From contig JBEWZL010000163.1 in the NCBI GenBank assembly GCA_045837725.1, forward strand, positions 62,001 to 126,000: a DNA stretch of 64,000 nt, read 5' to 3'. Positions 1,246 through 28,610 of the stretch are shown one piece after another. Under the pieces are notes generated by a model. The model did not search any database. It was not told where the DNA came from and saw nothing but the letters and a program-made list of their open reading frames with translations. A program made the translations under genes and the position numbers. Each line of letters begins with the position of its first letter. Within the stretch, counting starts at the first letter, position 1. The stretch is from Vermamoeba vermiformis (lineage: Eukaryota).

Positions 1246-1464
1246 TGCGGATCTATTTTTGTAAATATTTTCCGTTTCTTGATTTGGTTTTCTGACCAAA
1301 TTTTTGAACGGTTGTACATAGGTGTAATAAATAACATCTTCCTCCGTCCTTGCTTGCTATCTGTATTCACTGAATTTCTACGAAATTAGGATCAAAGCAC
1401 AAAAACTCCTCGCGCTCGGTGAAAAAAAAATTCATACAATTTTGTAAACACGACAATTAACACG

Positions 1465-11136: not shown

Positions 11137-13632
11137 ATGGCCGACCACGAACCAATTCCAGAACTTGAAGGAGAAGAAGGAGGCATGGGGATCCTTCAAA
11201 TCGGGTGGATCATCTCTGGCGTTTTTGTTATTGCCTCCTGTATTTTATCTTTCAAAATGATATATGACCATTTGAAGAATTATAACGAGCCGAATTTACA
11301 AAAGTAAGTGTTTGATAGATCCCAACGGCTATTTGGCGGTTTTAGCGAATTGTTTCTTTTTCTCACCTAACCTTCAATATCATCTGTATTATTTTAAAAT
11401 ATTTTAACTATTATTATGGCATCAATATCCGTACTGATTTAATTGACAATTACAGGCACATAGTTAGAATTATATTTATTGTCCCTGTATATGCTATAGA
11501 CTCGTGGCTGACACTCGTATTCGAATCCTGGTACGTGCAAATGCTCAAATAATAAGAATTGTTTCATTTCACGAATACTTCAAGCTCGATCAACCCATCT
11601 CTGCGCGCGAATTTCCTAGCTTGACTGACTTACCCTAATTCACAGGGCACTATGGGTGGATCTTATTCGAGATTGCTACGAAGCCTACGTCATTTATTTA
11701 TTCTTCAGACTGCTCGTAGAATTTTTGTTTGGCGAGGACAACTTGCGCGCAACACTCTACACCAAACCCCTGGCACACCATCCCATACCGATGTGCTGCT
11801 TGACTTATAGTCCTGGTGGTACCTTCTTGCATCGCTGCAAACAGGCCTTGGTCCAATTCATTATCATTCGTCCTGCTGGTGGTAAGCTAATGCTCGATCT
11901 GATCCTCGTCCCGTGTTGCCTCTTTAACATTTTTTCTCGCAGCTGTTGCAGCTTTGATTTTGGATTATTTCGGCCTGTACGGCAACGGTGACTTCTCCCC
12001 TCAATATGGCTACTTGTATTTGACCATTGTTGGTAAGCATTTTTCTTAGTCCAAGTGACCGTTACGAAAAATTAGATTTGACTCATCTGTCGTGTTATAG
12101 ATAACATTTCGTTCACTATCGCGCTGTACTACCTCGTGTTGTTCTACGAAGTGTTGGCTGAGGATTTGAAGCATTACAAGCCCCTGGCTAAGTTCTTGGT
12201 CATCAAATCCGTCATTTTCTTTGCTTTCTGGCAGGGAATCACGATTTCACTGTTAGTCAGCTTCGGTAAGCATTTTATTCGTAGCGATTAGCTGTTGGCA
12301 GCATATTTTGAGTTTTCATTTCTGTGTCATTAGACGACCTCGAATCTAACAGATTTATTTTCAGGTGCTATTCCTCACGGATCAGTTTGGGCCGAACATC
12401 TCCAAGCGTTCCTCATTTGCATTGAAATGCTTGGTATTGGCATTGCCTTCTACTACTCATTCAGTGTCAAGAGATACAAGGGTGAAGGTGCACCTTCGTT
12501 CGCTCCGCCCGTGCCTCGTGCCCAAAAGAGAAGATTTTTCAGCTCAATTGCCAGTGTGGCAAGCATGAAGGACGTGTTCCGCGACACCGTCAACAGCATT
12601 GCCCGTGCACCGCAAGTTTACGTTCATATTGCCGGTGAGTGTTAGTTTGAACGCAAAAAGGCGATTGAATTTTTCCGCTTCCGCAATATCAAGAATGACA
12701 AGGCGGCAATTTTAATAATTCCTGCATCAGAGATTGCGTGCGTGACGGCTTAATTAACTGAATCAACTTAATTTTTAGGTTTCTCGGAGGGATCTATTGA
12801 AGACAAACGAGCGCGAATCGTTCGTGAGGGCTGGCTCCAGAAACGCGACAAGGACGTATTCAAAAAGTGGCATCGTCGTTACTTTATGCTACTGAACAAC
12901 CCCGAGGGTATTGTCTATTACAAGACCAATCCATGGGAAGCTGCGAATCCTGAATCCGCTCTTTCGTTGCAAGTGAAAGGCTTCATCGACTTCCACAACC
13001 GTAAGTACTTAATGCACGTGCGGAGTTATAAACCATATTAATGGCCTTAAACAGTTGTCCATATTTGGAAGACGGAGCCCGGAGAAAGTACTCGCGTCAA
13101 GTTAAAGGGCAACAATACAATGATTTCAATTGAAGTCAGCAGGCCAAAGAAAAAGAAGAATAGAAAGTTCTACCTCCGCGCCGAGACTAGCGATGCTCAC
13201 GAATGGTTCGACAACATCAGAATTGTCTTGAAACAGATGGAAGAAGGTCTTTTGCCCGCTGCCCTGCCGACAGGCACGCATCCAGAGCAACAGCCGCACG
13301 AACCTGATGACGAAGAGATGGTAGAGCTTGATAACTTGGATGAAGAGCATGGACAGGACGCTGCTGCCGATCAAGACGATGTTGACAACGACTCTGATTA
13401 CTCCGACGACGAAGAAGGAGGCTTGGGTCCTCACGATGGCCCGAGACCGGTGTTCTACGAGAATGGTGGAGAGCTTCAAGAGGTCGTCGTAGATACGCCG
13501 CCAGCAGCAAACAAGCCTATAGAGACATCAAGCGACGATGAAGGTGGCTACGACTTCAACAAAACCGTAAAGCGCGAGGACTATGGCGATCTAGAAGACG
13601 TTCCGCTTGATGAGGCACGAACTAAGAAATAA
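11137..13632 (+). CDS. TMEM184 / organic solute transporter alpha family protein fused to a PH domain and acidic tail
   Basis: [65 protein letters not shown] and LICIEM. The PH domain reads VREGWLQKR..KWHRRYFML..FYLRAETSDAHEWF. Confidence 0.9.
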
Positions 13633-13834
13633 ATGGTCAGTATTTTTATTAATAAGGCATGACACAAAACTCAATTTAACGGTAATAATAGAAAATTTCC
13701 CCGGCGCGTAATTTTTCTTTTCTTAAATTGCCAAAAAAGGTTAAATCTCTGCCTTGGAGGTGGTTACATTCCCAGCTGTTTTTTTTTTGAACTTTTGATT
13801 AATCACAAAGTGTGGGGCACAACAAAAGCCTCAA

Positions 13835-16800
13835 ATGAATCGTGTAAATATATTTATTTTTGTAGCATTATTTTCGCTTGTATTTCTAGATGCGTGCTTG
13901 GGAGCAGCCATCCCGAAAGGAAACATCTCTCCAACGAGCATCACCGCAACTCCTAACCAACAATTCACCTTCGCCGTATCATTCGACAACGTCGGTGACG
14001 CAATCGCTTACGGTCCCTTCCTGGATGTTCTTTTCCCGTACGATCCGTCAGTCTCTCCGTTTACAGGAGTGAACGTAAATTCAGCAACTAGCTATCTAGG
14101 CATTAGTATTCAACCTGTTATTATGACTTTCACGGCTCTAACGCCTTGCTTCTACCACCCATACCTTTTGAATACTACAGGTAATTGACGGCAACACCAA
14201 AAAATAAAAGCTAATACATTGCTAATGGCATAATTTAGGTGGCGAAGATACGGTTTGTGGTACCCCGGGCACGAAGCTTTACTCATACAGATTACCCTTC
14301 TTGTCGTACGCATCTTCGCAGCCCACCATTGATCTTTCTCTATCGGCGTCAATTTCTCAAAACTGTAAGTCGTAAGGCGCTAATATAAGCGAATCATTTA
14401 TTTATCACTTCAATCGCTAAATGACTGCGGCAATCGCTAATGTACATTTTCCTCATTTAGCCGCCACTATTTCGGTGCGAGGAGGTTTCACTTACGTTAC
14501 TCCGGACAAGCCCGTAACGCAAGCATCGCTGATTAGCGCATGGAAGAACGCTACAGTATCGGCTTCGGTAGCGAAACCAACACTGACGTTTTCGTCATCG
14601 ACTTTCGGAACCGATCCTTCAACAATTTACAGCTGTTTCTTCAATTTGAACTTCGCAACGGGCACTCTTGTTGTGAATGGCACCGCTGTTATATGTAAGG
14701 AGTTATTTACAATTTTGGAAAAAATCACGGAAGTAACGATCCGCTCTTTCTAGGGTTGCCTTGCGGTGTGCACTTTATTGGATTTGATGCTGCTAGCACG
14801 GGAAAAAATGTAAGAATATTCTAGTGCCATTGCTTCACTTTCTGACATCTTTTAGCTTGCTTACAATAACGGCGCTTTCCAACCAGAAACCGGATTCAAG
14901 GATCAAGTGACCGTTGATTTGAATGACAACCCTAATACTACCGTGCAATTGAACAACGTCTACGTGGCGTTTCAATTTTACTTCTCTTACGATGAAGTAG
15001 TGCAATGCTATGGTGGCGGCGTTGGAGGTAGACCAATAGTCATTCCTTGGAGCGTGGGCATTCCTTATTATATTTACGATCCTACATGCAATTGCATTAA
15101 GGTAAGATAAGAAATAGTTATCTGGGAACAACAAATTTGTTATTTCCAAATTTGGAAAAATCATGCATTTACCCTTCTTTTGCAGTACTACAACCCTGGC
15201 ACTTCTGTTACGACCTCTGTGTCTCGGTTTACGATCGATCGAACTATGGTGGATCCAGCGACCCCCAGCAGTAAGTTTGGTTGGGTAAAATTCTAGCTTA
15301 ATTAATTCGTGCACAACAGCAATCAAACCTGGAGACACTTTGCAGAACAGAGCCAACGTTAGCTTTTATTTGGCAGAGTCACACACTTGCATTGACTCCC
15401 TAACGTGGGCTGAAAATGGCTTGGTTGATGTTCCAGTCAGTGGTAGCGCATCCGTTAAAGTAGATGCAACCACTTTGACCTTCACCCCTGCCACGAATGG
15501 AAATGGCGATTTTACCTATGATATCAGTAACGGATTGGGGCAAAGTCCGTTGACTCCGCCCTATTTTTTCGAGGCTCGGTATCAAACAACAATTGAGGCA
15601 AACGCAGATCGAACTCACGGATCGACCGTCAGCGCTGTAACTGAGTAAGCAATCTATAAGTGGTATCAAAAGTTACTAACGAGGGTAGTTTCTACTTTAA
15701 CGAAGTCAATTGCACGACTGGAGAGGTTGTTAAGCCCATCCACTTGACCGCTTCAAATTCCTTGCGCATCACTTCTGGAACATTAACGATGACGCAGTAC
15801 GCCAAGGATGGAGCTTGTAAGTAACGTCTCAACCAGAACTCCTTTTCTAACGTAGCCAGTGTGCAACCCCTGCTCCACGACTATCAGCCCAACGACTTTG
15901 GTAACCGTGTCCGTCAAGTACACGTTGCCAATCTCAACCTTCAAGAATTTGAAGTTGGATATCTACATGCCTTATCCACCTCTGCCAGTCTCCACAATGA
16001 CTTTCGAGTACGTAACAGTACTTAATCCGAACGGCCTTATTAACAAGTTAAAACAGCGATGTTATCGATGCTAATCCGCCTGCTTTGTATCACTGCAAGT
16101 TTGGTTCGGGAGAGACTTTGAGATCTACGTATGGAGTCGTCCCTACTGTGTCCTCGGATGCATCGAACAACCGCGTAACCCTAACTTACCCTGACTACTA
16201 CGACTCATCGTCCGCAAGCACCACGACTCAAATTCTTTGCACGTTCCAAACCGCGGACACAGACTTCCCTGATGAGCTTCCTGTTGCCGCTCAAATGGCT
16301 AGCTTCGAGCAGAATGTTGGCACATCCACTACTTACACTACTTACGTTTTGTCGCGGCCTGGTAAGCTTGTTGAGATTTATTTTGCAACAAAGTACTGAT
16401 AATAGTACAGTAATCGGAAGTGCCAACATATATAAGGGCTTTATCGCCTCCAATAACCCCCTTGCTTCGATGACGACAGGCTCGATCTCTTTTCGAGCCC
16501 CCGGTACATCGGGTAATAGATGGAACGCAGCTACCACACCTATTACTTCGACGTACTTCTCGAGCAATCAAGCTAGCTTGACATCAAGCGTCTCGCAAGT
16601 TGACGCCAATGATCTGGTCACGGTCATCATAGTCATTAACAATCAAGGCTCTTCACCTGCTTATGACGTAAAAGTGTCCGACGTTGTTCCCTCTGGCCTC
16701 GTTCAACCCAGCGGAGGCTACAACATGCGCGTCACAAATGGTGCTGGCACAGCGCTCACAACTAGCGGAAATTTGTTTTCTGGTGGCTTGACCATCACTC

Positions 16801-19800
16801 GTGGTACCAGTCCACCAATGCAAAGCAAGGCTAGCACAACAGGAGATAATATCATTGTCATCACCTACGACCTGCAGATTAACTCAATCTCCCCTGGCTA
16901 CACAATTACCGTCGACTCTGTAACACTCCTTGGCTACGCGGCTTATGTGGGTGGAACACAATACGCTAGTAACATCAAGTCTGGCACGATCACGATCGAT
17001 GGTGCCGTTCCATCCATTCAAACGCCCGTCCTAGTGTCAAGCGTAAGATCAACAACTTTTTAGTTCTAAGCTGATACTGATCTCATTTTTAGTCACTCAC
17101 GGAGACTGGCTCCAGCAGATACTCAAGCTCATATACTGACTTTGCACTGGGGGAGTCGTTCATATTGTCCGTGACAATGAAATTCCCCGAGGGAACTACG
17201 AAGTCTACTTACTTTGAGTTCGCTTTTCCTACAGTTGCCACGGGTGTTATTCAGTACGCTAACTCGACCATTAGCTACGGTGGTAACGTCTCTCCTGCTA
17301 CATCGACCGTATCAAGCGACAGTTCTACTGTTAGAATTACCTTTGGTGATGTGACCAACGTTGCCGGTATGTGTAACAAGTAGCGCTTTGAATGTGGATA
17401 CTAATTTTGTAATAGATGACACTGTTTCTGCCGACGACGAAATCACAATCCTCATTGCAGGCATTGTTGCTGGCACTGGCAATGCTCAATCGAGCACTGT
17501 TCGCACTAGCACTGGATTGTTGCAATATGGCATTCAGAACTCCGCTGTCCAAAATCTGACCACTACTTTTGGCTGCGAGCTTGTTGAACCTGCCCTGACC
17601 ATCTCACGCACGTGGTCCATGACCAGTTCATCCAATGCCGATGACACCATTACGATGACGATTGTTGTGCAGCACAACTCTGGAACAACTAACTCTGCTG
17701 CCTTCAAGTTGAACATCACTGACGCACTCGGATCTTACCTTGTCAGTAACTCCGATGCCACGGCTACGATGGGCACCATTGTGCAGCAAGATCCCTTACA
17801 AGTTTCAATCCCCATCTTCACCATCGGCAGCACTACGACCATCACTTACACTGCCAAGTTAGTGTCCAACTTGGAGCTCAATCAACAAGTTGTCAGCACT
17901 GCCTCGCTTGCCTACTACAGTGTTCCTGAAGCCTCTTTGGCGAAGAGTTACAGCGCGTCTTCCGCGACCACGCAGAACTCGGCAAAGGCAAGCATTGCGA
18001 CTGTCTTAATCGGCACTAGTCTTGCAGAGACCACCAAGAGCAAATATTCCACTTCGATCGATGACTTGGCAATTGGCGAAACGGCGACCATTCAAAGTAC
18101 TGTTACACTTCCCGAAGGCAAAATCTCGAGCGCTGTTCTTACGTTCAAAACGCCACAAGTGACTGACGGCGTCATGGAAATCGTCTCTGCTCGTATCTAC
18201 TCAGTTGGTACCAGTATTTCTGGCTCTCCTACGCCAGCCGTCAATGAAGCAGCAACAATCACGCAAGGAACTGCATCCGTTCCTGCCACTGCCACTTGGA
18301 ATTTGGGCAATTTGGTCAATACTCCCGATAACGTTGCTGATGCAAACGACAAAATCGTCATCGAAGTCGTTGTAAAGCCGACCGTTGGCAAAGCTCTCCA
18401 AAGCAGCACTGCTCGCTCGTTAACAGCAGCCCTCGCTTCTTCATTGACAACTACTACGGTCACCGCCATTCAGTTTGAAATTGTTGAACCAGTGAAGACT
18501 CTTGCTAGAACTACTACAATGACAACTTCGAGCGATGGTCACGATCTTATCAACATCACGCTTACAGTCGGTTCTGGCTCTTCTGACAACGCAGCCGCCT
18601 ATCAAACCGTTGTTACGGACGATGCAAGCTCTTCGATGACACTAGTCGTGGGTTCTGTCACAGTGACAGGCACTGCTTCGTACACCGTTCAATCAGGCAA
18701 TACTGCTGGTGATACATCACTTTCAGTGCTCATTCCTAAGATTCTTTCTGGTGCATCGAATATCGTGATCACTTACCAAGCACGAATTGTCGACAACATT
18801 CAAGCAGCCACTTCTGTCGTTGGTACTGGCTCGATGATCTACTATTCCGACACTGACACAAGTGCAACAAACGCCAAGTCGTACACACAAACAGCTTCCA
18901 ACACTGTCGTGTCCAAGACTCCTGCCATTTCAATTGTCGTCGCTAGCACGTCGCTCTCCGAGACGGGTGCAGATCCTGGCAATTCTGCCATACAGACTTT
19001 GGCTATCGGTGAAACTATTGCCTACACGATCACTTTGACGCTACAAGAAGGTTCATTGAGCAGCACTCAAGTCACTTTCACCGCTACTCAAGTCGCTACC
19101 GGAACTCTCGAAGTCCTTGCTGCCAACGTTTCCTTCGTTGGTTCTTCCATCACCGGAAACCCTCCAACTGTTGGACAGACTGCCACTGTCTCTACTGGTG
19201 GCTTGGGAACGAGCTCTATCGCCAAATTCATCTTGGGCAACGTATACAACGACCCTGATGACACGCAGAATGCTCAAGACACGATCCAGTTCACTGTTGT
19301 TTGTCGTCCGTACCTCGGTTTGGCAAGTCAGACTGGAAATGCCCTCACGAACACAGCTGCCCTCGCCTATGGTAGCTCTGGTTCTGCTTCAGCCTCGAGC
19401 CAAGTGAAGATCTACGACGCTGTTCCTCTTCTTATTTCCAGGACCTCGAACATCGCAACGAGTGTTGATGGAGGAGATGTCATTTCAGTCACGCTGACTA
19501 TTCAGCCCGATACTACTTCAGGAAATCTTGGTCCTGCGTATTCAGCTGTAGTCAACGACTTGTTGGCTCCTGATATGAGCGTGGTCATCGCCTCAGCTGT
19601 CTCTAACAAGACTAGCGCCGTGATTACTACCGGTCCCACATCAAAGGATTTGCAAGCTTCTATCCCTGTCATCCAAAAGACCGATCCTGCTGTCCGCATT
19701 ACTTACAACGTTACGGTGAACTCGCAAATCGAGGCAAGCTCGGTCTCTATGCAAGCAAAAGTGCAGTCCTACACGAGCCCTGATATTATAAACTCGAAGA

Positions 19801-22800
19801 CCTACACTGTTCAGACATCTGCTGTCTCTGCAACAGTGCCAGCAATCGCAACCACCCTGGCATTGGTATCAACCTCCTTGGCTGAAAGTGGCGCAGACTC
19901 CAGCAATGCTTTGATTGAGAACTTGTTCCTTGGAGAAGTTGCCCTCTTGCACCTGACAGTTCAATTCCCCGAGGGTAACACATCGAACGCCGCCCTCAAT
20001 TTCACGGTTCCGCAATCAGCGAAGAACGTCATGGAAATCGTCTCCTCGAAGGTGACAGCCATTGGAGCCAACTTATTCTCCAGCGTTCCCATCGCTGTGA
20101 ACCAAGCTGGCACTGATACTGTTGGCGCTCTTGGAGTTGTGTCATTCACTCAATTCAACTTTGGCACTATCTACAACGCCCCTGATAACACCGTATCAAG
20201 TGCGGACAAGATTACTATCGAATTCCGTGTTAGATTTGCCAGTGGCCAAAGCAATGAGCCCACTGGTACTGCAGTGTCGGTTTCAATGTTCACTGCTTCA
20301 CTTCGTGCCACGACTCCGAATAGCTACCAGTTTAAGCTCGTAGATACCACTCAGTTGTCGCTCATCAAAGCGATTCCCTTGGCAAACATTATCGATGCAG
20401 GCGACATAATCACAGCAAATATCACCGTTACACCGGCCAGCTCAGCAGCAACTGCAGCTTACAACATCGTGGTTACGGATGAACTTGGTCCTTACGTCAC
20501 TGTCCTCACGAACACCATAACCAAGTCAGACGCCAATGCCGTCGTGACAGTCAGCGGTACATCCGTAGTTATTCAACTTGGTGTGCTATCTGGTACCAAC
20601 AGTTTGATCGTCACGTATCAAGTCCAAGCAATTGCACAGCTTGAAGTGCTGACAACGATGACTTCCGAGGCCAACATGACGTATTACTCCAACTCGGATA
20701 TTCAGAATGCCAAGGTCTATCAAGTGACGAGCCCCAGCTTTTCTTCAACCAGTTCTCGCGGCTCTGTTAGCAGCTCTATCACAGCAACATCGCACAATGA
20801 AACAACCAAGGCCCAGTACGACACCAACGTTGAAGATATGATTCTTGGAGAAACTGCCACAGTGACATATGTAGTCACTTTCGCTGAGGGTAGAACAACC
20901 GGAAGTTCATTATCCGTTGTTTCTTCTGAAGCTGCTGGCCGTGTCGTAGAAATTGTCTCCATGTCAGTTCTCAGCGTGGGCTCAAAGCTTTCATCTTCCG
21001 TGTAAGTCTGTATTACGATATAATTACATTTCATTTTTTCTAACATTATTTTTGTAGCAATCTCCTGACAACCACTGCGGCTTTGTCTGAAGGAACAGTG
21101 GCGGGAGTCAACACTCGTGCTTCAATGAACTTGGGCGATATTCTCAACACAGCTGACAACACTAACAACGCTAACGATCAAATGCGTGTTACTGTTGTAC
21201 TCCGATTCTGGCATTCAGCCTCTACCACGCAGACTGGCACTGACGCCTTGACCACGATCACATTCAGTGCCGATGCTTACATCGACAACACTACTACAGC
21301 TTTGGAGTTGCTTCTCACCAAGCCATTGATGTTCACCAAAACAGCAATTGGTGTGCAAGACGGACTTGACGAAGGGGATAAGATCAACGTTACGATTGTC
21401 ATTTCTCGTGACAGTAACAGTGCTAACCTTGGACCTGCTTACAAGATCTCAATCACCGATGACTTGTCTTCTCAATTAGTGGTAGTTCCTGGCAGCTTCG
21501 TAACGTCCAACGCCAACGTGGTCAAGACTGAGACTTCCTCAACCACCAACACAGTCAGGTTTGATCTTCCAGTATTGCTCATCACGGACAGTGACGTTGT
21601 GATCACTTACTTCGTCACTCCTATTGTTGGCATTCGCCCCAACACTTACGTGTCTAGCACGGCATCGTACTACTATCAAGCTAGCAACATCAACGACGCA
21701 ACCTCGCCCTCATGGAGCTCTCAATCCTCAACTTACGAGTTCACTTCTGCACTAATTTCGGCTCGTACTACAACTAGCGCGTTAGTTACTGGAGCTGCTA
21801 CGTACAGAGATCCCGAGTACATCACGCTGTCGGTTGGTCAAGTAGGTGTCATCAAAGCAATTTTTGGAATGCCCGAGGGAAATACTACGACTGTTGTGCT
21901 CACTGTTGAGAGTCCGACTGGTCCGGACACTTTGATGGAGATCACCAGTGCCAAGGTTTATTCAAGCGGTTCGAAGCTTAGCTCCGATGTTACGTAAGTG
22001 CAATTTTATGGAATCAACCAGGACTAACAGATTTTAAGTATTACGAACGTTGTTCCTGCAATAACGAACACTTCAATGCCGTATGAATCTAAGGCTGTCT
22101 TTACCTTGAGCTACATTTACAACCAAGCCGACAACATCAAGAACACTAACGACGAATGGGTCGTTGAGCTGAACGTCATATTCCCACTGGAGATTACGTC
22201 CAGCAACATTCAACCTTGCATCACAACCTTCAGTCTGACTTCGGACACTTACAACGTCTCCACTCAAGCTGCATTCCTTCCTGCACCAACATCTGATTTG
22301 TTGTTGGCTCGCTCAAGTTCAATGAAAGACAACATGGATGCTGGTGACTTATTCTCAGCTACATTGACAGTGTTTACCGCGAGTGCTAACGGTAGTGACA
22401 CCTTCAACGTCAATGTCAGGGATGTCCTCTCTGGCTTGGATTACGAGGCGCTATCTGCTCAATTCAGTGAAGAAACAGCTTTCTTGATTGCTGACCCTGC
22501 CGACTTCGTCTCAGAGTTGCCATTCCGCGAGTTCAACAGCTCCGACTACGTGATTCAATACAAGCTTCGAGTCGGTTCTGAAATAGAAGCAAATGCTCAA
22601 ATTTCGGCATTCGCAGAGTTGCACTATCAATCTGGCAACATTGGAGCCTTGGCTAAGAATGTCTCGCTTTCCACGAGAGTATTCACAGCAACTACGGCAA
22701 GTCCTACATACGACTTCCAAGTCTCAACTATGCTCCCCGAGACCACTGAGGTTGCAGGAGTACACCAAGTCACTTTTGGTGAAACAGCTACAGCCACTTT

Positions 22801-25800
22801 TACGATCACATTCACGGAAGGTCGTACTTCAGGCAGCCAGATTTCAGTCTTCGCTAGCCAAATTACTAGTGCTGTGGTCGAGATCCTGTCTCTAACGGTC
22901 ACTCACGTTGGTTCCAAGATCTCGTCCTCAGAGTAAGTACATCGGGATAAATAGGCCTCTTTTGCTAATTATTCGCTTAGGTACCTTTCTACGGTTAAAG
23001 CGGTATTGATCAAGAGCACTAATGGTGTGAATGCCAATGCTACTCTATACCTCGGAGACATTCTGAACACTTACGACAACGTGGTTGATGACAAGGACCG
23101 AGTTACCGTTGAAGCCGTGTTCAGATTTGTGCCCGATGTGAATGAAACTATTGGAGTGACCGCCACGAACTCGATTCAGTTTGACTCACAGACTATCCAC
23201 CATGAAGAGCAATTCTCTATGGTTCTCGTTGATTCTCACTTGACCATCACTGAAGACACGTCAGCTCAAAACGTAGCAGCAGGAGACATCATTTACTTCA
23301 CGATCATCGTGTCTCCTATCGCAGGCAGTACCGGTCCCCTCTACGACATCCAAATTTCCGAAGATTTGCCTGAGCAGCTCAACTTGGCGAGCGCTTCCGA
23401 CTCAGTGGCCACGAATCAAGGCAATGTCGTATCTAGCTTGCGAACTGACAAGTTCACTGTTGTCGTTCCTATCTGGACCCCAGCTGACGGTGATATTGTG
23501 GTCTATGCTGCATGCACTGTCTCGAAGCCTTCAGTCACCGGTAGCAACTTCAATAGCAACGGTGCCACGTTGAGCTACAGGACAGCCCCTTCAGCCAAAA
23601 CTGATAGCTACATTGAACGCGCCGATCAAGCCAGTGCCCTCAACTTCTACACGGCTCCCAGCACTTTCGTGCTTAAAGAGGCAGATCCAAACAGCCGTCA
23701 AGTTGGCTCCATCTTCCTTTTAGAGATTGGTCAGGTGTTCTTGATGCAAGCCGAAATCGTTTTTGCTCGTGGTGTATCTAGCAACACGACACTCGCTTTG
23801 GCCTTGCCTAATGACTTGGCGGGTGCTCTTCAGCCCATTGAAAGCATGATCAACTTCACCGGTGTTGCCGTTGACCAGATCGACTTCAACTACGAGCTCA
23901 GTGACTCCAACAACGATGGCATCAAAGATCTATTCACTGTCCATTTGGGCGATGTGCTGATCGTTGGTAACAACGAGACTCAACCTGTTGACAGCTTGGT
24001 AGTCATCACGTTCGTCACCATCACGAACCGCGTCTCTCGAGACACTGGTGACGTGCTCGCAGCTACTTTGGGCATTACTTTCTCTGGCTCAGCTCCCTCC
24101 ACTGATTCGCTCTCCCTGCAAATCGTTGAGCCAGTGGCCACTAGCAGCACTGTAATCACACAAATCAGCCAACTCTTCGAGATTGACGACACGTTCACTA
24201 CTGTTGTGACCTTGCAACACGAGCTGACGTCTCATTCTCCTTTGTATGAGATCGTCATTCAACTCGCTGGCAATACATCCGCTTATCACATTCTCAATGG
24301 CACAGTAACCACGTCCATCGGTAGGTCATGACTCAATTGTATTATGCTTGCTAACTATGTTATTAGATTCTATCGTCACCGTTGATGCCGACACCCAAAC
24401 AATCTACATTATGAAATATGATGTGGAATCAAACGCAGACTTGGTAGTTACATTCGACTGCGTCTTTGTCGAAGCTACCGTTGGTTCACCAATGGAAACT
24501 GGTGTAATTGTCACGGGCAAGAGTTCTGCACCTCACAGCGATTACTCTGAATTCGACGAGGCAATTGTCTACACCATCGAAGAGAGCTACAGATCACTTG
24601 ACATCAAGCGCCCTGACGTCACGATCTTCGTCTTTGATCCTAAGACTGGTGAACGTCTTGAGAAGCTTGAACTGCCCGTGTCAGGTGAAGGCTACGTTAA
24701 GGCTCTCATCCACGTGCCCAAGAGCTTGGTTCCTACGCTCTCAATTTACTTCGAGTTGGATGAAAAGTTGGCTTTGAAGGACGGCGAACTGGTCACTATT
24801 CAAAGCAACACCACGCTGTACATTGGTGGTTCTGCAACGACACCTCTTGAGCAAATACTCGAGGCCGGTCTTAACGTGGAAAACAACGGCACCAAATTCA
24901 GCATTGCTTTCAACGGCTCAATTGACGTCCCTGAACATCAAGCCTACATTGAAGTCTCGTTCCCTGTCGTGAGACTTAACACCAACAGCAGCGGTAATTC
25001 TTCCACTTCAGCTTGGTAAGTAGATTTATTGACATGATGGAGCACCTAGCTGACGACTATTAGGATTGAATTCCCCGGAACTAACAACACTACGAACAAC
25101 GGGACTCGCACTATTATTCCAGGCGACGTTATCAAGTCGATCGAGCCTGAGTTGACGGTGATTGTCACTAAAGTCGATCCAGTTGAAATTGAAAAGTCTG
25201 GCGAGAACGCAACGATCAACTTGCTCATTTTGCACACTACTAGAAGCACGTACACTGCCTTCTTGGTGAACTTCAAGTTGACATTGCCCGACATTTACGA
25301 CTTTGTTCCTGACACTGTATTTGCTCGTGTTGATAACGAAACGCTTGATAGTAAGTGAATTTATTCGCTATGTTGCTCTTACTAACAAATTTTATTCAGT
25401 CTACGTGAATGGAAGTGATTTGATCGTCAAACGCGACCATTTGAACTTGAACGAGCGCATTGCCATCGAGTTCGTCGCGATTGGCTACAACCCCGAGTTC
25501 TCTTCAACGAGTTCATTGAGCAACATCTACTGCTCGTACACCACGACAGCTGACACGACCACGCAGTTCTCGGTCTACAACCAGTTGTCCGTCTACAGAA
25601 AGATCGAGATTGGTATGCATAGTTTATCCCCCCTTGACGCAGCAACACTTTATCTAACGCTTTCAATAGCCCCTGATGTTGCTGTCTTGGGTCCCTTGTC
25701 GTACTTCCCCACTGACGATATTGCGCTGTCCCCGGTCGAATCAGTCGGAGCCTCGTACAACTTGCCACTGCTGTCAACCTCAAACGACAACTCCTCGTTC

Positions 25801-27887
25801 ATCGCATTGAGCTTCGATTTGAGTCACATCAAGTCTTACTTCGCTCGCATTCACCGTACGTCAATATGTCTTCGAGTAACATCAACTCACCAATCAATTT
25901 TAGAACTTGCGCTCGTGCTGCCTGTTGCAGCCACTGAGGGTCAATTCTCTGACAGCCAGTTGCACATTCATGTGTCGTCGATTGGCGGCTATGTTTGGGA
26001 TGAAAACACAGCTACCTATGTGCGTAGAGCGGATAAACAACAGATTTTAAGTGCGTGACTAACAAATATTAGGCGTCTATGCTCTCCGTTAGCCCTCACG
26101 AGAACAGCGACAGACTGCAAGTCGGCGAGATTTCGCTTCCTGACGCGACCAACTACGTTCAGATCGATCTCGATCGTGCGTTGATTGTGCTGAACGAGAA
26201 TCAAACCAAGGTCAACTTGCTCATCCACGCCTCTGAAGGTGCTGATGCTGCGAGGCTCACCATCTTCTCCAAAGAGTCTAAGGCTAACAAAGCAGCTCGC
26301 TTGATCATTGAGTTCGAGCGTCCTCCTGAATTGACGTGCCAACAGTTCCCCGTCAGAAATTCCGAGTTTGGCGCTGTCACGTGGTTGACAGGCGACTTGT
26401 GCTTGCCTGCCTGTCACGCCACATCTGCTGGCTTAATCTGTGATCCTACAGTCTCTTTTACGCCAGCCAACGATCACAAGAACTTGATGCCCTTGTTCTC
26501 TTCGGAGAGCAGCATTGAAGGCGGTGCTTTGCGCTTCGTCCTCAAACTGCCCCTTAGCGTCTTGCCCTTGGACGACTCTGTAAGCTTCAAGTTCAAGCTT
26601 GGCAACGAAGAGCGTGCCTCTGCCGTGTACGCTTATCCTGGTGTCTTGTGGACTACACGCGTTGTAAATGCCACTGAGACTGACCTTGGTGAAACGCAAT
26701 GGATCCTCGAAGTGCCTTGGAAGCTGGCACTCACTGCTGGCTGGTCCGAACTGGTCGACAAGAAGTACAACCGACACGTGTGGAGCACCAATCTGACTAT
26801 CTTGATTGACGACGAATATGTCTGGCGCTATCCCGTGGAAGTGCAAGTGCCTGAAGTGCCGCAACTGGGCACGGTCTTCTCCACCAACTCTGCTAGCAAT
26901 CGTGTGTTCAACAGCACTAGTTCGAACTCAACGACTGGCATCAGTCTTGACACTCCCTACATTGACTTTGTGCAATTGAAGCTGGTCGTGCCAATCATCA
27001 GCGTCAATACCAATTCGAGCCTGTTGGAGATCATGAACTCGACTATTAGCGCTGAATGGTCGCTGGTCGATGACACCGATTACAGCTCTTGCGCCAACAC
27101 GACAACTTGCACTCAGACCTTCAATTTGTTGATCCCATTAGAACAAGAGCTGCCTTCGATCAATCACACTGTTGTTGTCATTGACTTTGAGGCCTCGTCA
27201 TGCCCTTCATGCAACAAGCGTCTCATCCCGTTCTCGATTGACTTCAACTTTGGTGCCAGCAACATCCGTTCGGTGGTTACATTGCACTGGGACTATGAAG
27301 GCAATGGCGAGGTGTTGAACACAAATCTCGAACCTGAATCAGTGTTCACTATCTTCGAAAAGATCCTGGTCCACGTGCACGTCGATCAACTGCCCCTCAA
27401 TCGCAGCACGTTCGTGCAAGGTGTGCTCGATCAAACAGCATACGACAACTTGGCGCTAGTCATTGACAACACCGAGTACGTCCTCATTGAGCACGGTCAA
27501 GTCACAGCCACAGGCCAAGAACTGCAACTCCAACTCGTGTCACAGAGCGAGGCAGACGTTACCGTGTCACTCTCCTTCGCTAACTCCAATCTCATCGTCA
27601 ACAACGAGACACAAGCCACGATTGTCACGGGCGTATTCACCGATCAGCTGCATCAGCTCAACTTCACGCAGCGCACTTCATGGCCCGTGTACACAGCGCA
27701 CAACGTCACGCTGATCATTCCACCTAGTCCCGATGATGGAGTCGTCGCACCAGTTGGCACGGGCATCGACGTCATTCTGCCTGCTGTCATCATTCCTGGT
27801 GTGTTTTTGTTGCTTCTGCTTGCTTTCCTGATTTGGTTCGTTTTGATCGCTGCGGGTCAATGCAACCACTACTGCTTGCAATATTAA
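13835..27887 (+). CDS. Giant (about 4,000+ aa) type I surface protein/adhesin with bacterial-type DUF11/fimbrial-D2-like Ig repeats, a DNRLRE/CBM96-like domain and a C-terminal TM; about 20 introns
   Basis: Signal peptide MNRVNIFIFVALFSLVFLDACLG and contiguous S/T/V-rich exons joined by short GT-AG introns. Motifs GE....TVTLPEG and D(A)GD.I..T..V...AAY..VTD.L recur. TM VILPAVIIPGVFLLLLLAFLIWFVLIAAG. The exact 3' end is uncertain because an extra short exon is possible. Confidence 0.85.
16570..25350 (+). repeat. About nine degenerate two-domain protein repeats, period about 930 nt (about 310 aa)
   Basis: The A-domain signature (LAIGETA/LFLGEVA/MILGETA/VTFGETA..PEG) recurs near 17150, 18070, 19000, 19925, 20840, 21830, 22770, 23720 and 24680. 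Confidence 0.8.
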
Positions 27888-28610
27888 GCATTGTAAATTA
27901 ATAAAAAATAATAACCTTTTGTGCAACTTGGCTGAGACAATTATTTATTTTTAGTTTTTTATGCAGCTGATGTACACACTTCTCGGTAATTTACGTGGAC
28001 ATGAGTCGTAGAGTTCAAAAGAGAAAAACATAAAACAGCGCACGGTGGTAGCCAGAATCCTGCATCTGTCCGCGGACGAACTTGTTTTTTCTGAGACAAT
28101 TCCCAACAACAAACCAGTTTTAATTGTTACGAAAAATCTCGAATTTCTGTAAGACTCAGGCTAATTATTGGCGTGCAGATGGAGGTGGATTTAAATAGGG
28201 TAGTTGTAAAGCTCTGTAACGGAACGGTAATAGTGTTAACAATACATTATAATTATCTGGAAATTAATCTTACAGTTGTTCAGGCGTACTGGTTGTGTGA
28301 CTGGGTGGATTGGGTGTCTAGAGCAGGGTCTCGCGTGTCAAAGTTGCTGGATCGAACCAGAATGGCCCCTCTAACAAGTGTACTGTAGGAAAATATCACA
28401 AGGTAGCTAGAGATGAACGTCCGCAGACAAGACAAAAATAGAAAATGTCCCTTTGCCCATCCGCGGACTGGCATCGTCTGCGGTTCCAATTGGCCTTGTC
28501 CATGGCTAAAAATTATTTAAAGCAGAAAAAATTGGTGCAGTGCAATTACAATTGTCTGAACAACGCCAGCCCTCTCACTTCACTTCCGAATCCAATACGT
28601 ACGACTCAAA

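What the first reader, a model, noticed from the sequence alone, without database searches (positions are those of the whole stretch)
13835..27887. Domesticated bacterial-type giant adhesin carrying spliceosomal introns (probable horizontal transfer)
Seen: a signal peptide, about nine paired beta-sandwich repeats with recurring N..DN....D loops (possible Ca2+ sites), about 20 introns and one TM. Recalled: FTFAVSFDNVGDAIAYGPFLDVLFP and VDANDLVTVIIVINNQGSSPAYDVKVSDVVPSG..GGYNMRVTNGAG..NIIVITYDLQI resemble bacterial DUF11/'isopeptide-forming fimbrial' surface proteins. Inference: a prokaryotic adhesin was captured, intronised and re-anchored by a eukaryotic TM, and may serve prey capture, substrate adhesion or the cell coat. 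The introns and eukaryotic neighbours argue against contamination.
Basis: partly seen in the sequence, partly recalled or inferred. Interest (0 to 1): 0.7.

Follow-up and report, generated by a model that had tools for sequence, protein, structure and literature searches.

The report
Eukaryotic giant surface fibre of bacterial ancestry
A single 21-exon gene in a microbial eukaryote encodes a 4,327-residue membrane-anchored surface fibre that descends from bacterial fibrillar adhesins, has lost their self-forming covalent cross-links, and belongs to a small, previously overlooked eukaryotic family.

Summary
Window 13835-27887 (+) is one gene of 21 exons and 20 introns encoding 4,327 aa. It has a signal peptide, an all-beta head, eight clear ~308-aa two-domain units plus degenerate ones, an orphan ~720-aa region, one TM and a 12-aa tail.

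A 79%-identical uninterrupted 4,079-aa environmental ORF crosses 17 of the 20 predicted junctions without a gap.

Homology to bacterial "isopeptide-forming fimbrial / DUF11" giants is colinear from the N-terminus (E 1e-194).

- It is not a private or recent capture. Related proteins occur in Thecamonas, Fabomonas and Balamuthia.
- In my best-sampled tree the eukaryotic rows sit together on one side of a branch rather than nested among bacteria.
- Codon usage matches the neighbouring genes.
- The repeat array expanded inside this lineage.
- The Lys-Asp-Asn isopeptide triads, kept in about 98-99% of 123 bacterial units, are complete in none of the 16 window domains.
- No curated family model reaches its cut-off.

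Most likely it is a glycosylated, plasma-membrane-anchored adhesin or coat fibre. That function is inferred, not shown. A 2025 survey of isopeptide domains dismissed eukaryotic hits as contamination, so this counts as a new variant of a known kind.

The parts
13835..27887 (+). Whole coding region: 21 exons, 20 introns, 4,327 codons plus stop
   Evidence: Splice model. Colinear with the uninterrupted 4,079-aa ORF P0216 from aa 237 to the end.
13835..13903 (+). Signal-peptide-like N-terminus (aa 1-23)
   Evidence: Hydrophobic window at aa 3-27. The cleavage site is inferred by eye.
13904..16580 (+). Head and mid region (aa 24-723, exons 1-11), 13 of its 14 Cys (the 14th, Cys21, lies in the signal peptide)
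   Evidence: aa 20-250 aligns to the N-termini of bacterial proteins and of Fabomonas. aa ~495-860 aligns at bacterial positions ~500-950 in over 100 proteins. The homologous Pirellulaceae head folds as a chain of beta-sandwiches, pLDDT 94.7.
16581..17627 (+).
   Evidence: hmmsearch score 116. Pfam DUF11 23.9 bits, below the 24.6 cut-off. Groups with the first unit of every other protein examined.
17583..18527 (+). Unit 2 (aa 1025-1339)
   Evidence: AlphaFold2 pLDDT 93.4, pTM 0.87.
18483..19412 (+). Unit 3 (aa 1325-1634)
19455..20276 (+). Unit 4 (aa 1649-1922)
20361..21289 (+). Unit 5 (aa 1951-2241), interrupted by intron 13
21353..22180 (+). Unit 6 (aa 2263-2523), interrupted by intron 14
22325..23194 (+). 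Unit 7 (aa 2572-2845), interrupted by intron 15
23228..24157 (+). Unit 8 (aa 2857-3166)
24158..25482 (+). Degenerate unit remnants (aa 3167-3560)
   Evidence: Domain-A-like match at aa 3463-3560. The sister protein has a weak ninth unit. Weak BLAST hits to units of other proteins.
25483..27752 (+). Orphan membrane-proximal region (aa 3561-4283), 9 Cys
   Evidence: For aa 3700-4327 the only matches among 219 fetched proteins are the sister ORFs P0216 and P0214. No hit among 1,700 candidates. Atlas blank. No Pfam or NCBIfam family.
27753..27848 (+). Single transmembrane segment (about aa 4284-4315)
   Evidence: Hydrophobicity. Conserved in the sister protein.
27849..27884 (+). 12-aa cytoplasmic tail with two Cys
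14181..14238 (+). Intron 1
   Evidence: GT..AG, restores the frame. Not covered by P0216.
14365..14460 (+). Intron 2
   Evidence: Not covered by P0216.
14695..14753 (+). Intron 3
   Evidence: P0216 begins one residue after this junction.
14810..14855 (+). Intron 4
15102..15185 (+). Intron 5
15271..15319 (+). Intron 6
15645..15688 (+). Intron 7
15817..15859 (+). Intron 8
   Evidence: a 1-residue gap lies 3 aa downstream of the junction.
16008..16056 (+). Intron 9
16362..16410 (+). Intron 10
   Evidence: A 1-nt deletion in environmental contigs lies here.
17043..17092 (+). Intron 11
17367..17415 (+). Intron 12
21002..21057 (+). Intron 13 (phase 2, after ...VGSKLSSS)
21994..22038 (+). Intron 14 (phase 2, at nearly the same place in the next unit)
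   Evidence: An insertion variant lies here.
22933..22980 (+). Intron 15 (phase 2, at nearly the same place in the next unit)
24321..24366 (+). Intron 16
25016..25063 (+). Intron 17
   Evidence: A 3-nt insertion variant lies here.
25351..25399 (+). Intron 18
25856..25903 (+). Intron 19
26020..26072 (+). Intron 20

Best explanation
The locus is one expressed-type eukaryotic gene for a 4,327-aa type I membrane glycoprotein. After a signal peptide come:
- an all-beta head of several sandwich domains;
- a stalk of eight (plus degenerate) two-domain units, each pairing a CLIPPER/DUF11-like domain with a pilin-backbone-like domain;
- a Cys-containing region of about 720 aa with no relatives;
- one TM and a 12-aa tail.

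Shown: head, mid region and stalk are colinear homologues of the bacterial fibrillar-adhesin family that NCBI names 'isopeptide-forming domain-containing fimbrial protein' (TIGR04226 + TIGR01451).

Inferred: the gene came from bacteria long ago. It now belongs to a eukaryotic subfamily (Thecamonas, Fabomonas, Balamuthia, unnamed environmental sequences) that gained ER signal peptides, TM anchors, N-glycosylation sequons and cysteines. That subfamily has lost most or all of the autocatalytic Lys-Asp-Asn cross-links: all in this window, while Fabomonas DN44 still keeps five domain-A triads. The array of units 2-7 expanded within this lineage.

Likely mechanism (inferred): about 20-25 Ig-like domains project the N-terminal head roughly 80-100 nm from the plasma membrane, so the protein acts as a passive, long-reach adhesive or coat fibre. 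Stability would come from glycans, disulfides in head and base, and perhaps Ca2+ at the conserved Asn/Asp loops, not from isopeptide bonds.
For: Gene model and splicing. Four of 4 indels lie in non-coding parts, and 26 of the 40 listed substitutions are synonymous.

Eukaryotic setting: the neighbours carry PNGase/PUL, C2, TMEM184-PH, RasGEF, Sec15, SAM, SCNM1 and mTERF domains. GC3 is 0.537 against 0.51-0.58 in six of seven neighbouring ORFs (the seventh, 9347-10306, is 0.344), and RSCU r = 0.67.

Homology:
- 57 long proteins with E down to 4e-194.
- 345 of 1.84 billion representatives at E<=1e-3.
- N-terminus to N-terminus, and mid region at positions ~500-950 in over 100 proteins.
- Invariant VITYDL and NGAG motifs.
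- 195 of 224 pattern matches in prokaryote species genomes are relatives, spread over at least 8 phyla.

Triads:
- In 123 bacterial units the domain-B Lys, Asp and Asn are kept in 122, 121 and 121 units, and the domain-A Asp and Asn in 120 and 119.
- In the window's eight units, domain-B Lys is kept in 0 of 8, Asp in 0 of 8 and Asn in 2 of 6 aligned. Domain-A Asn is kept in 1 of 8. No domain has a complete triad.
- The triad spacings match 9IFR and 2X9Z as tabulated in PMC12617251 (passages read).

Eukaryotic relatives: named. They show signal peptides, TM anchors, 0.66-2.5 sequons per 100 aa (Balamuthia 0.66 lies inside the bacterial range) against 0.2-0.85 in bacteria, and Cys 0.2-0.7% against 0.00-0.05%. 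They form one side of a branch with support 87.9.

Unit tree: first units are orthologous by position, and window units 2-7 form their own clade.

Fold: pLDDT 93.4 and 94.7. PDB sequence hits are the pilins Spb1, EbpB and FimA-like and the CLIPPER structure 9IFR.
Against: - No RNA from this organism was seen. Expression rests on an environmental contig of a 79%-identical relative whose DNA I could not fetch. It could in principle be an intronless copy.
- The trees are unrooted and 'quick'. All eukaryotic rows are long branches (1.3-2.2, unnamed ones up to 4.3) with deviant composition, so their grouping may be long-branch attraction.
- In the 98-row tree Thecamonas stood apart from window plus Fabomonas.
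- The direction of transfer is argued from distribution and character polarity, not from nesting.
- Nothing tests adhesion. Foldseek gives only generic tandem Ig-like matches (integrin alpha legs, AgI/II, SdrD) at TM 0.2-0.4.
- The window's organism was not identified.
- Only 28 of the fetched proteins were looked up by name, so the eukaryotic distribution is a minimum.
Confidence: 0.68

Rival explanations
1. Recent, lineage-specific horizontal capture of a bacterial adhesin by this organism.
For: The best scores are to bacterial giants. In the 98-row tree, window plus sister sat inside sets of bacterial rows with supports of 81 and 92.
Against: - The stem branch is 1.4-1.6 substitutions per site, against a bacterial median of 0.17-0.4.
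- Identity to any bacterium is only 25-35%.
- There are 20 introns.
- Codon usage equals that of the neighbours.
- Curated bacterial HMMs no longer reach their cut-offs.
- Relatives exist in three other deep eukaryotic lineages and group with it.
- Units 2-7 duplicated after divergence.
Confidence: 0.07
2. Several independent bacterial-to-eukaryote transfers (one each into the window lineage, apusomonads, ancyromonads and Amoebozoa). Convergent loss of triads and long-branch attraction would then create the apparent eukaryotic clan.
For: - All eukaryotic rows are long branches, and the tool warned of long-branch joins.
- Thecamonas separated from the others.
- The pattern of triad loss differs. 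Thecamonas keeps the domain-B Asp in 11 of 14 units. Fabomonas DN44 keeps five complete domain-A triads. The window keeps neither.
- All four hosts eat bacteria (my own knowledge).
Against: - One side of a branch at 87.9 in the best-sampled tree.
- Shared type I membrane architecture.
- No eukaryotic row has a close bacterial sister.
Confidence: 0.22
3. The same molecule serves mainly as a structural cell-coat, theca or glycocalyx component or spacer rather than as a ligand-binding adhesin. The parallel is Dictyostelium colossin A, described as a structural slug protein built of bacterial Cna_B repeats.
For: - 24% Ser+Thr and 60 sequons.
- No specialised binding fold in the head: a chain of sandwiches only.
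- Precedent in PMC3188802 (passages read).
Against: The head is the best-conserved non-repeat part between bacteria and eukaryotes, including a Cys pair shared with a Pirellulaceae protein. That fits a conserved binding function. Nothing here decides between the two.
Confidence: 0.25
4. Bacterial contamination or mis-assembly, or a locus that is really several genes.
For: PMC12617251 (passages read) judged the eukaryotic isopeptide-domain hits in AFDB to be likely contamination.
Against: - Twenty spliceosomal-type introns interrupt the frame.
- Eukaryotic genes flank it on both sides.
- The same exon breaks occur on contigs of up to 530-593 kb of a relative, and one uninterrupted ORF spans aa 237-4327.
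- Environmental contigs carry the introns.
Confidence: 0.01

Closest known systems
Bacterial giant fibrillar adhesins named 'isopeptide-forming domain-containing fimbrial protein / DUF11 domain-containing protein' (TIGR04226 + TIGR01451), e.g. Roseomonas fluvialis WP_244407810.1 (4,765 aa) and Bosea sp. BK604 WP_131857226.1
   Same: - Colinear head, mid region and first unit.
- The same ~310-aa two-domain unit repeated 8-14 times.
- Conserved VITYDL, NGAG and Asn/Asp-loop motifs.
   Different: - The bacterial proteins have no introns, no TM and 0.00% Cys (0.05% in the Planctomycetes Pan216 protein).
- The Roseomonas, Bosea and one metagenomic protein share a C-terminal motif (not Pan216).
- Both Lys-Asp-Asn triads are present in nearly every bacterial unit.
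- The window protein has a signal peptide, TM, sequons and Cys, has no complete triad, and scores below the curated cut-offs.
CLIPPER (DUF11, PF01345; PDB 9IFR) and GramPos_pilinBB (PF16569; RrgB 2X9Z) isopeptide domains, as surveyed in PMC12617251
   Same: Predicted beta-sandwich domains in tandem forming a stalk. A profile of the units hits 9IFR, Spb1 and EbpB by sequence. The triad positions correspond in the bacterial relatives.
   Different: The paper (passages read) reports these domains in bacteria and archaea and treats eukaryotic hits as false positives or contamination. Here the fold is in a bona fide eukaryotic gene, but the bond-forming residues are replaced, the domain-B Asp by Phe, Val, Ser or Leu.
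Eukaryotic relatives: Thecamonas trahens AMSG_11683 and AMSG_09866, Fabomonas tropica EukProt transcripts (DN44, DN302, DN2403), Balamuthia mandrillaris KAL6071150.1
   Same: - Same unit type (9-17 units counted in P0066 and P0005), with triads mostly lost.
- A signal-peptide-like N-terminus in Thecamonas AMSG_09866 and Fabomonas DN2403 (weaker in DN44); a C-terminal TM in AMSG_09866, DN302 and DN2403, not seen in AMSG_11683, DN44 or Balamuthia.
- Higher sequon and Cys content.
- Same side of the tree.
   Different: - Only 25-33% identical.
- They do not share the window's C-terminal 720 aa.
- Their repeat arrays expanded independently.
- Fabomonas DN44 keeps five complete domain-A triads and one domain-B triad.
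- None is described in the papers I searched.
Dictyostelium colossin A (Cna_B repeats; candidate bacterial transfer; PMC3188802, passages read)
   Same: A giant eukaryotic protein built from tandem bacterial adhesin-stalk domains.
   Different: A different domain family. No Cna_B match was found in the window protein. There is no evidence of common origin.
Grappling-hook proteins GhpA (Aureispira) and GhlA (Litorilinea, 49 DUF11 domains; PMC13319060, passages read)
   Same: Multi-thousand-residue beads-on-a-string DUF11 filaments on a cell surface. GhpA is linked there to catching prey.
   Different: These are bacterial and multimeric, with a hook tip. I did not compare sequences, so this is a functional analogy only.

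Membership tests
Isopeptide-forming domain-containing fimbrial protein (NCBIfam TIGR04226) / DUF11-type repeat protein (TIGR01451, Pfam PF01345 CLIPPER) | Significant, colinear sequence homology to family members | tested here: met
   E 4e-194 to 1e-20 for 57 long proteins. Head, mid region and units lie in the same order.
Isopeptide-forming domain-containing fimbrial protein (NCBIfam TIGR04226) / DUF11-type repeat protein (TIGR01451, Pfam PF01345 CLIPPER) | Score at or above the curated cut-off of the family models | tested here: not met
   - PF01345: 23.9 bits against a cut-off of 24.6.
- TIGR01451: 21 bits against 24.
- TIGR04226: no match in nine exon ORFs and one unit.
- For comparison, Roseomonas P0067 scores 489 and 309 bits, and Fabomonas P0005 scores 110 and 109.
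Isopeptide-forming domain-containing fimbrial protein (NCBIfam TIGR04226) / DUF11-type repeat protein (TIGR01451, Pfam PF01345 CLIPPER) | Lys - catalytic Asp/Glu - Asn triad in each domain | tested here: not met
   0 of 16 domains in the 8 units have a complete triad. Domain-B Lys is kept in 0 of 8 and Asp in 0 of 8. Domain-A Asn is kept in 1 of 8. Bacterial units keep each residue in 119-122 of 123.
Isopeptide-forming domain-containing fimbrial protein (NCBIfam TIGR04226) / DUF11-type repeat protein (TIGR01451, Pfam PF01345 CLIPPER) | CnaA-like Ig-type beta-sandwich fold | tested here: inconclusive
Isopeptide-forming domain-containing fimbrial protein (NCBIfam TIGR04226) / DUF11-type repeat protein (TIGR01451, Pfam PF01345 CLIPPER) | Actual intramolecular isopeptide bonds | not testable with these tools
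   Needs mass spectrometry or a crystal structure.
Sortase-assembled Gram-positive pilins | C-terminal LPXTG sorting signal | tested here: not met
   No LP.TG anywhere in the 4,327 aa. The C-terminus is a TM plus a 12-aa tail.
Colossin-type Cna_B repeat proteins | Cna_B (Pfam) repeats | tested here: not met
   No Cna_B match at E<=0.1 in nine exon ORFs covering most of the protein.
Eukaryotic subfamily of TM-anchored DUF11/pilin-like giants with mostly lost triads (proposed here) | Units of the bacterial type with degraded triads, plus (where termini are complete) a signal peptide, C-terminal TM, and raised sequon and Cys content | tested here: met
   The window groups with the named eukaryotic rows. 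The subfamily is my own grouping, not a curated family.

The most novel reading that the evidence does not exclude
Heterotrophic, surface-associated protists (apusomonads, ancyromonads, some amoebae and the window's lineage) would share an old, largely vertically inherited family of bacterial-type fibrillar adhesins, acquired once before these lineages split. These 80-100 nm fibres would be part of their substrate-adhesion, gliding or prey-capture surface. Where the CLIPPER triads persist (five units of one Fabomonas transcript), they would be the first intramolecular isopeptide-bonded proteins of eukaryotes. That would answer a question the isopeptide field has left open and had provisionally answered 'contamination'.
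Probability: 0.2. Interest if true: 0.8.

Novelty: new variant of a known kind. Interest (0 to 1): 0.6.

Why it matters
Three reasons.

1. It is a clean, contamination-proof case of a bacterial fibrillar-adhesin architecture living as an ordinary nuclear gene. The evidence is 20 introns, eukaryotic neighbours and a splice-confirming homologous ORF. The family extends to at least three other deep eukaryotic lineages. The 2025 global survey of isopeptide domains set eukaryotic hits aside as false positives or contamination, and it could not see giants because AFDB stops at 1,280 aa (PMC12617251, passages read).

2. It is a natural experiment. The same stalk is built with covalent cross-links in nearly every bacterial unit and without them in the eukaryote. 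In the eukaryote the catalytic Asp is replaced by hydrophobic residues, and sequons and cysteines have appeared. That makes testable what the bonds are for, and what replaces them in a secretory-pathway glycoprotein.

3. It offers a candidate molecule for the poorly known surface adhesion or coat of bacterivorous protists.

Tried and rejected
- Whole genome not held.
- Self-BLAST of the whole model gave only the self hit; chunked BLAST worked.
- Sequencing runs: no RNA holder listed. Three RNA runs with the same species label were laid and gave 0, 0 and 1 read. This is no test of expression.
- Metagenome scans for the DNA of P0216 and P0065: the first found nothing and the second only a 29% relative, L001. 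I therefore never saw the DNA behind the uninterrupted ORF.
- ESM Atlas on the last exon: no usable hit.
- Word-based search with the sister's last 980 aa: none of 1,700 candidates. This search looked only at proteins of 2,243-7,139 aa.
- Taxon of the window: a TMEM184 exon found only unnamed JGI proteins. Organism not identified.
- Aligning the short window head exons into A3 scattered them, so I drew nothing from that mapping.
- Literature: no paper holding (DUF11 + horizontal gene transfer + eukaryot), (isopeptide + horizontal gene transfer + protist), (ancyromonad + genome + horizontal gene transfer), (DUF11 + isopeptide + adhesin) or (Thecamonas / adhesin / bacterial origin) describes this eukaryotic family (listings only, except the four papers read in passages). 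Supplements were not opened; Table S2 and Figures S4-S6 of PMC12617251 may list the eukaryotic hits.
- Considered and rejected: a sortase pilin (no LPXTG); a Cna_B colossin homologue.

Full report
**1. What is at the coordinates**

The + strand from 13835 to 27887 carries a chain of long open frames in changing phases. Joining them through GT-AG introns gives a single frame of 12,984 nt and 4,327 codons, with 21 exons and 20 introns. The introns are 43-96 nt (mean 53.5 nt, GC 0.338). They have GTAAGT-like donors and mostly a CTAAC/CTAAT-like branch site. A scoring DP model built independently agrees at 16 of my 20 introns; it merges introns 3 and 4 and places introns 7 and 8 differently. For those I kept the model with short introns, which a homologous ORF later supported.

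**2. Independent support for the model**

The exhaustive search of 1.84 billion representatives found P0065, 80% identical to the 3.6-kb exon 12. Its 90% cluster (15 members, all JGI/IMG; one also held by ENA) has two kinds of member:
- exon-sized ORFs on contigs of up to 593 kb;
- two long uninterrupted ORFs, P0216 (4,079 aa on a 15.5-kb contig) and P0214 (2,129 aa on 6.8 kb).

P0216 aligns to my model from aa 237 to the last residue at 79% identity. No gap falls at any of the 17 junctions it crosses; the nearest indel is one residue, 3 aa from junction 8.

P0216 is 99.3-99.5% identical to exon-sized ORFs (P0211, P0215, P0217, P0207) that, on contigs of up to 530 kb, run into stop codons exactly where my introns 13 and 16 begin. 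The simplest reading is that P0216 is an assembled, spliced transcript of the orthologue in a sister species. I could not fetch its DNA, so this is an inference.

Contigs of a water metagenome cover 26 of 30 bins of the locus at 95-100% identity (44 pieces: 22 at 99% or more, 22 at 95-99%). All 4 indels lie in introns 10, 14 and 17 or after the stop. Non-coding sequence is about 12% of the stretch laid.

Of the 40 substitutions listed there (43 more were not shown), 26 are synonymous in my frame. Codon positions 1/2/3 take 11, 5 and 24 of them. This points to purifying selection on this reading frame.

**3. Setting**

ORFs on both sides carry eukaryotic domains:
- PNGase (transglutaminase core, PAW) with PUL;
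- C2;
- Solute_trans_a followed by PH, immediately upstream;
- RasGEF, Sec15, SAM, SCNM1 zinc finger, BSD, LRR/ankyrin and mTERF.

The gene's GC (0.489) and GC3 (0.537) match six of seven neighbouring ORFs (GC3 0.51-0.58). RSCU correlates at r = 0.67 over 59 codons. Contamination and mis-assembly are excluded.

**4. Anatomy of the protein**

- N-terminus: a hydrophobic stretch at aa 3-27. C-terminus: one at aa 4284-4321, followed by 12 residues with two Cys. This was a Kyte-Doolittle scan only.
- Repeats: chunked self-BLAST shows repeats at offsets of about 305-310 aa and 24-50% identity.
- Units: an HMM built from 123 bacterial units finds eight units (724-1039, 1025-1339, 1325-1634, 1649-1922, 1951-2241, 2263-2523, 2572-2845, 2857-3166) and a domain-A remnant at 3463-3560. 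The sister protein has a weak ninth unit. "About nine" is fair.
- Fold: AlphaFold2 of unit 2 with a 130-row alignment gives pLDDT 93.4 and pTM 0.87, with twenty strands and no helix of four or more residues.
- Loop motif: N..D[ND]....D occurs seven times at a period of about 308 aa. The mean of 500 shuffles is 0.17 and the maximum 2. Its first Asn is also conserved in bacteria. Ca2+ binding is plausible but untested.
- Composition: 24% Ser+Thr, 60 N-x-S/T sequons and 30 Cys. Of the Cys, 14 are before aa 724 (13 in the head proper, one in the signal peptide), 9 in the last 720 extracellular residues and only 4 in the eight units.

**5. What it is related to**

Curated libraries barely see it. 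Pfam DUF11 scores 23.9 bits (cut-off 24.6) on one exon and 15.7 on another. TIGR01451 scores 21 bits (cut-off 24). Nothing else matches.

Direct searches are unambiguous.
- Exon 12 finds 57 proteins of 2,091-5,000 aa with E from 4e-194 to 1.7e-6. Where named, they are called "isopeptide-forming domain-containing fimbrial protein", "TIGR01451 family repeat protein", "SdrD B-like" or "PKD domain-containing".
- HMMER over all representatives finds 345 proteins at E<=1e-3, 238 at E<=1e-10 and 108 at E<=1e-30.
- The similarity is colinear from the very N-terminus. Window aa 20-250 aligns to residues ~20-260 of bacterial proteins. Window aa ~495-860 aligns at positions ~500-950 in more than 100 of the 130 proteins hit. 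The units follow.
Even a Cys pair in the head is shared with a Pirellulaceae protein.
- A scan of one genome per prokaryote species found 224 pattern matches, of which 195 are relatives. The 80 kept come from Acetobacteraceae/Roseomonadaceae, Bosea, Rhodobacterales, Chloroflexota, Planctomycetota, Chthoniobacteraceae, Myxococcota, Binatia, Nitrospirota and a Pseudobdellovibrionaceae MAG.
- In the bacterial proteins the unit is a TIGR04226/DUF11 domain followed by a GramPos_pilinBB-like domain.
- A profile of the units hits the solved pilins Spb1, EbpB and a FimA-like protein, and the CLIPPER domain 9IFR.

**6. The cross-link residues are gone**

PMC12617251 (passages read) tabulates the isopeptide triads:
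- DUF11/CLIPPER: Lys715-Asp748-Asn806 in 9IFR;
- GramPos_pilinBB: Lys193-Asp241-Asn318 in 2X9Z.

Bacterial units show two such triads at matching spacings.
- Domain A: K9-D45-N112 in HMM numbering.
- Domain B: K159-D200-N287.

In 123 units from 67 loci, the domain-B Lys, Asp and Asn are present in 122, 121 (plus 2 Glu) and 121 units. The domain-A Asp and Asn are present in 120 and 119. In three whole bacterial proteins nearly every full unit has all six residues.

In the window's eight units:
- domain-B Lys is present in 0 of 8;
- domain-B Asp is present in 0 of 8, replaced by Phe four times, Ser twice, and Val and Leu once each;
- domain-B Asn is present in 2 of 6 aligned;
- domain-A Lys is present in 1 of 4 aligned, Asp in 7 of 8 and Asn in 1 of 8.

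No domain keeps a full triad. The sister species shows the same pattern. The protein works like a fibrillar-adhesin stalk but fails the defining chemical feature of the family it comes from.

**7. It is not alone among eukaryotes**

The best non-self hit is Thecamonas trahens AMSG_11683 (5,325 aa, E 7.7e-222). A Fabomonas tropica EukProt transcript is also high on the list.

I used triad loss as a proxy across 212 fetched proteins: 137 keep at least 90% of the triad residues, and the median is 0.96. I then looked up ten of the poorest.
- Five carry eukaryote names: two further Fabomonas transcript groups, Thecamonas AMSG_09866 and Balamuthia mandrillaris KAL6071150.1.
- Four were unnamed or 'hypothetical protein'.
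- One carries only a JGI label, "TIGR01451 family".

These eukaryotic proteins share several features that the bacterial ones lack.

| Feature | Eukaryotic proteins | Bacterial proteins |
|---|---|---|
| Signal peptide | seen in Thecamonas AMSG_09866 and Fabomonas DN2403, weaker in DN44 | none seen |
| TM segment near the C-terminus | in AMSG_09866, Fabomonas DN302 and DN2403; several in two unnamed giants; none in AMSG_11683, DN44 or Balamuthia | none |
| N-x-S/T sequons per 100 aa | 0.66-2.5 | 0.2-0.85 |
| Cys content | 0.2-0.7% | 0.00-0.05% |

Triad loss differs by lineage. Thecamonas AMSG_11683 keeps only the domain-B Asp, in 11 of 14 units. Fabomonas DN44 keeps complete domain-A triads in five units and a complete domain-B triad in its first unit.

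**8. Phylogeny**

All trees use the single-copy mid region (about 370 columns), IQ-TREE LG+C20 PMSF in "quick" mode with SH-aLRT support only.

- 98 rows (80 named loci with L001 left out, 14 of the metagenomic proteins, 4 eukaryotic rows). Window plus sister (support 100) sit on a stem of 1.39. They join Fabomonas (94, with a long-branch warning) inside sets of bacterial rows supported at 81 and 92. Thecamonas stands apart on a branch of 2.2. Bacterial end branches have a median of 0.17, and bacteria cluster by phylum.
- 54 of those rows. The four eukaryotic rows fall on one side of a branch, support 76.
- 52 rows (45 of the earlier rows plus Balamuthia, second Thecamonas and Fabomonas proteins and four unnamed triad-poor proteins). 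The seven named eukaryotic rows and two unnamed giants form one side of a branch at 87.9, against 41 bacterial or presumed-bacterial rows (34 named loci, 7 unnamed metagenomic proteins) plus two triad-poor proteins that nest among bacteria.

The data fit one old acquisition. They cannot exclude several acquisitions joined by long-branch attraction, and being unrooted they do not give the direction.

I infer bacterial ancestry from three points:
- the breadth in prokaryotes (at least 8 phyla, plus the wider pilin/CLIPPER superfamily) against four eukaryotic lineages;
- the polarity of the triads, which are intact in bacteria, partly kept in Fabomonas and lost elsewhere;
- the uniformly long eukaryotic branches.

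A FastTree of 66 units shows that the first unit of every protein groups by position across bacteria and eukaryotes. Window units 2-7 form a clade of their own (supports not examined). The array was therefore rebuilt by duplication inside this lineage.

Introns 13, 14 and 15 lie in the same phase and at nearly the same place in three successive units. This fits duplication of a unit that already carried an intron. Units 2-4 lie in the intron-free exon 12.

**9. The non-homologous end**

Residues 3167-3560 still give weak unit-like matches.

For residues 3700-4327 the only matches among the fetched proteins are the sister ORFs. There is no Pfam or NCBIfam family, no Atlas neighbour, and no hit among 1,700 long candidates searched with the sister's last 980 aa.

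"Re-anchored by a eukaryotic TM" is thus a fair description. The other eukaryotic relatives use different C-terminal regions.

**10. Head**

The homologous head of a Pirellulaceae protein was folded with 46 bacterial rows and six window exons. It gives pLDDT 94.7 and pTM 0.90 and is almost entirely beta strands (one nine-residue helix). Foldseek returns integrin alpha legs, PrgB Ig-like domains and AgI/II C-domains at TM about 0.2.

No specialised binding fold is evident. This model is of the bacterial protein, not the window's.

**11. How it probably works**

Shown:
- secretory-type N-terminus;
- long beta-sandwich array;
- single C-terminal TM and minimal tail;
- loss of the cross-link residues;
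- many sequons.

Inferred:
- With the anchor at the C-terminus, the conserved head is the distal end.
- At about 4 nm per Ig-like domain (my own knowledge), 20-25 domains reach about 80-100 nm.
- The protein would act as a passive adhesive or coat fibre.
- Mechanical and proteolytic stability would come from glycans, terminal disulfides and perhaps Ca2+ loops.

Bacterial DUF11 giants form surface filaments, among them the "grappling hooks" that PMC13319060 (passages read) describes and links, for Aureispira, to catching prey. That makes prey or substrate capture plausible for a bacterivore, but nothing here tests it.

**12. Known or new**

Giant eukaryotic proteins made of bacterial adhesin-stalk repeats have a precedent in Dictyostelium colossin A (Cna_B; PMC3188802, passages read).

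The family itself is well known in bacteria. PMC12617251 explicitly asks whether such domains occur in eukaryotes and sets its eukaryotic hits aside as false positives or contamination.

None of five full-text searches turned up a description of this eukaryotic family.

I rate it a new variant of a known kind, of moderate to high interest. The window's organism remains unidentified.

Noticed in passing
window 11629-13632 (+): The gene just upstream appears to be a fusion of a TMEM184/OST-alpha transporter domain (Solute_trans_a) with a PH domain. Ten environmental proteins were hit, and nine carry both domains. The best (P0220) is 89% identical, 601 aa on a 1,925-nt JGI contig. None is named.
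   Followed up: partly
window 21002-21057, 21994-22038, 22933-22980: Introns 13, 14 and 15 sit in phase 2 at nearly the same place (after ...GSK(L/I)SS.) in three consecutive repeat units. Units 2-4 (exon 12, 3.6 kb) have no intron there. This fits duplication of an intron-bearing unit plus one cDNA-type loss across exon 12. Not tested.
   Followed up: partly
P0005 (Fabomonas tropica EukProt transcript), units at 1434-3289 and 825-1135: Five units keep a complete CLIPPER-type K-D-N triad, and the first unit keeps the pilin-type triad. The protein also has a eukaryote-like signal peptide, 1.77 sequons per 100 aa and 0.64% Cys. If truly eukaryotic, it is a candidate for intramolecular isopeptide bonds in a eukaryote.
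   Followed up: partly
P0128, P0233, P0180 (unnamed JGI/Logan proteins, 6,037-6,295 aa): These triad-less giants of the same family end in several (about 5-7) hydrophobic segments and a long acidic tail, instead of a single TM. In the tree they group with the eukaryotic rows. The source organisms are unknown.
   Followed up: no
P0067, P0004, P0072 (bacterial relatives), last ~25 residues: A conserved C-terminal motif (S-L-[AV]-W-N-[RS]-F-A-x-D-F-[AT]-A) is shared by Roseomonas, Bosea and a metagenomic protein. These proteins have no predicted TM. It may be a secretion or anchoring signal. It is absent from the eukaryotic proteins.
   Followed up: no
P0127, P0027 (unnamed, about 4,100-4,270 aa): These proteins have lost most triad residues but nest among bacterial rows in the tree (support 100 for the pair). 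Triad loss is therefore not exclusive to eukaryotes.
   Followed up: partly
window 13500-28300, runs X12-X14: Three RNA-seq runs filed under the same species label as the DNA source gave 0, 0 and 1 read on a 14.8-kb stretch. Either the label covers a different strain or organism, or the gene is silent in those samples. I could not tell which.
   Followed up: no
window 9347-10306 (+): A 320-codon open frame with no Pfam match has GC3 of 0.344, well below the other ORFs (0.51-0.58). It may not be coding in this frame.
   Followed up: no
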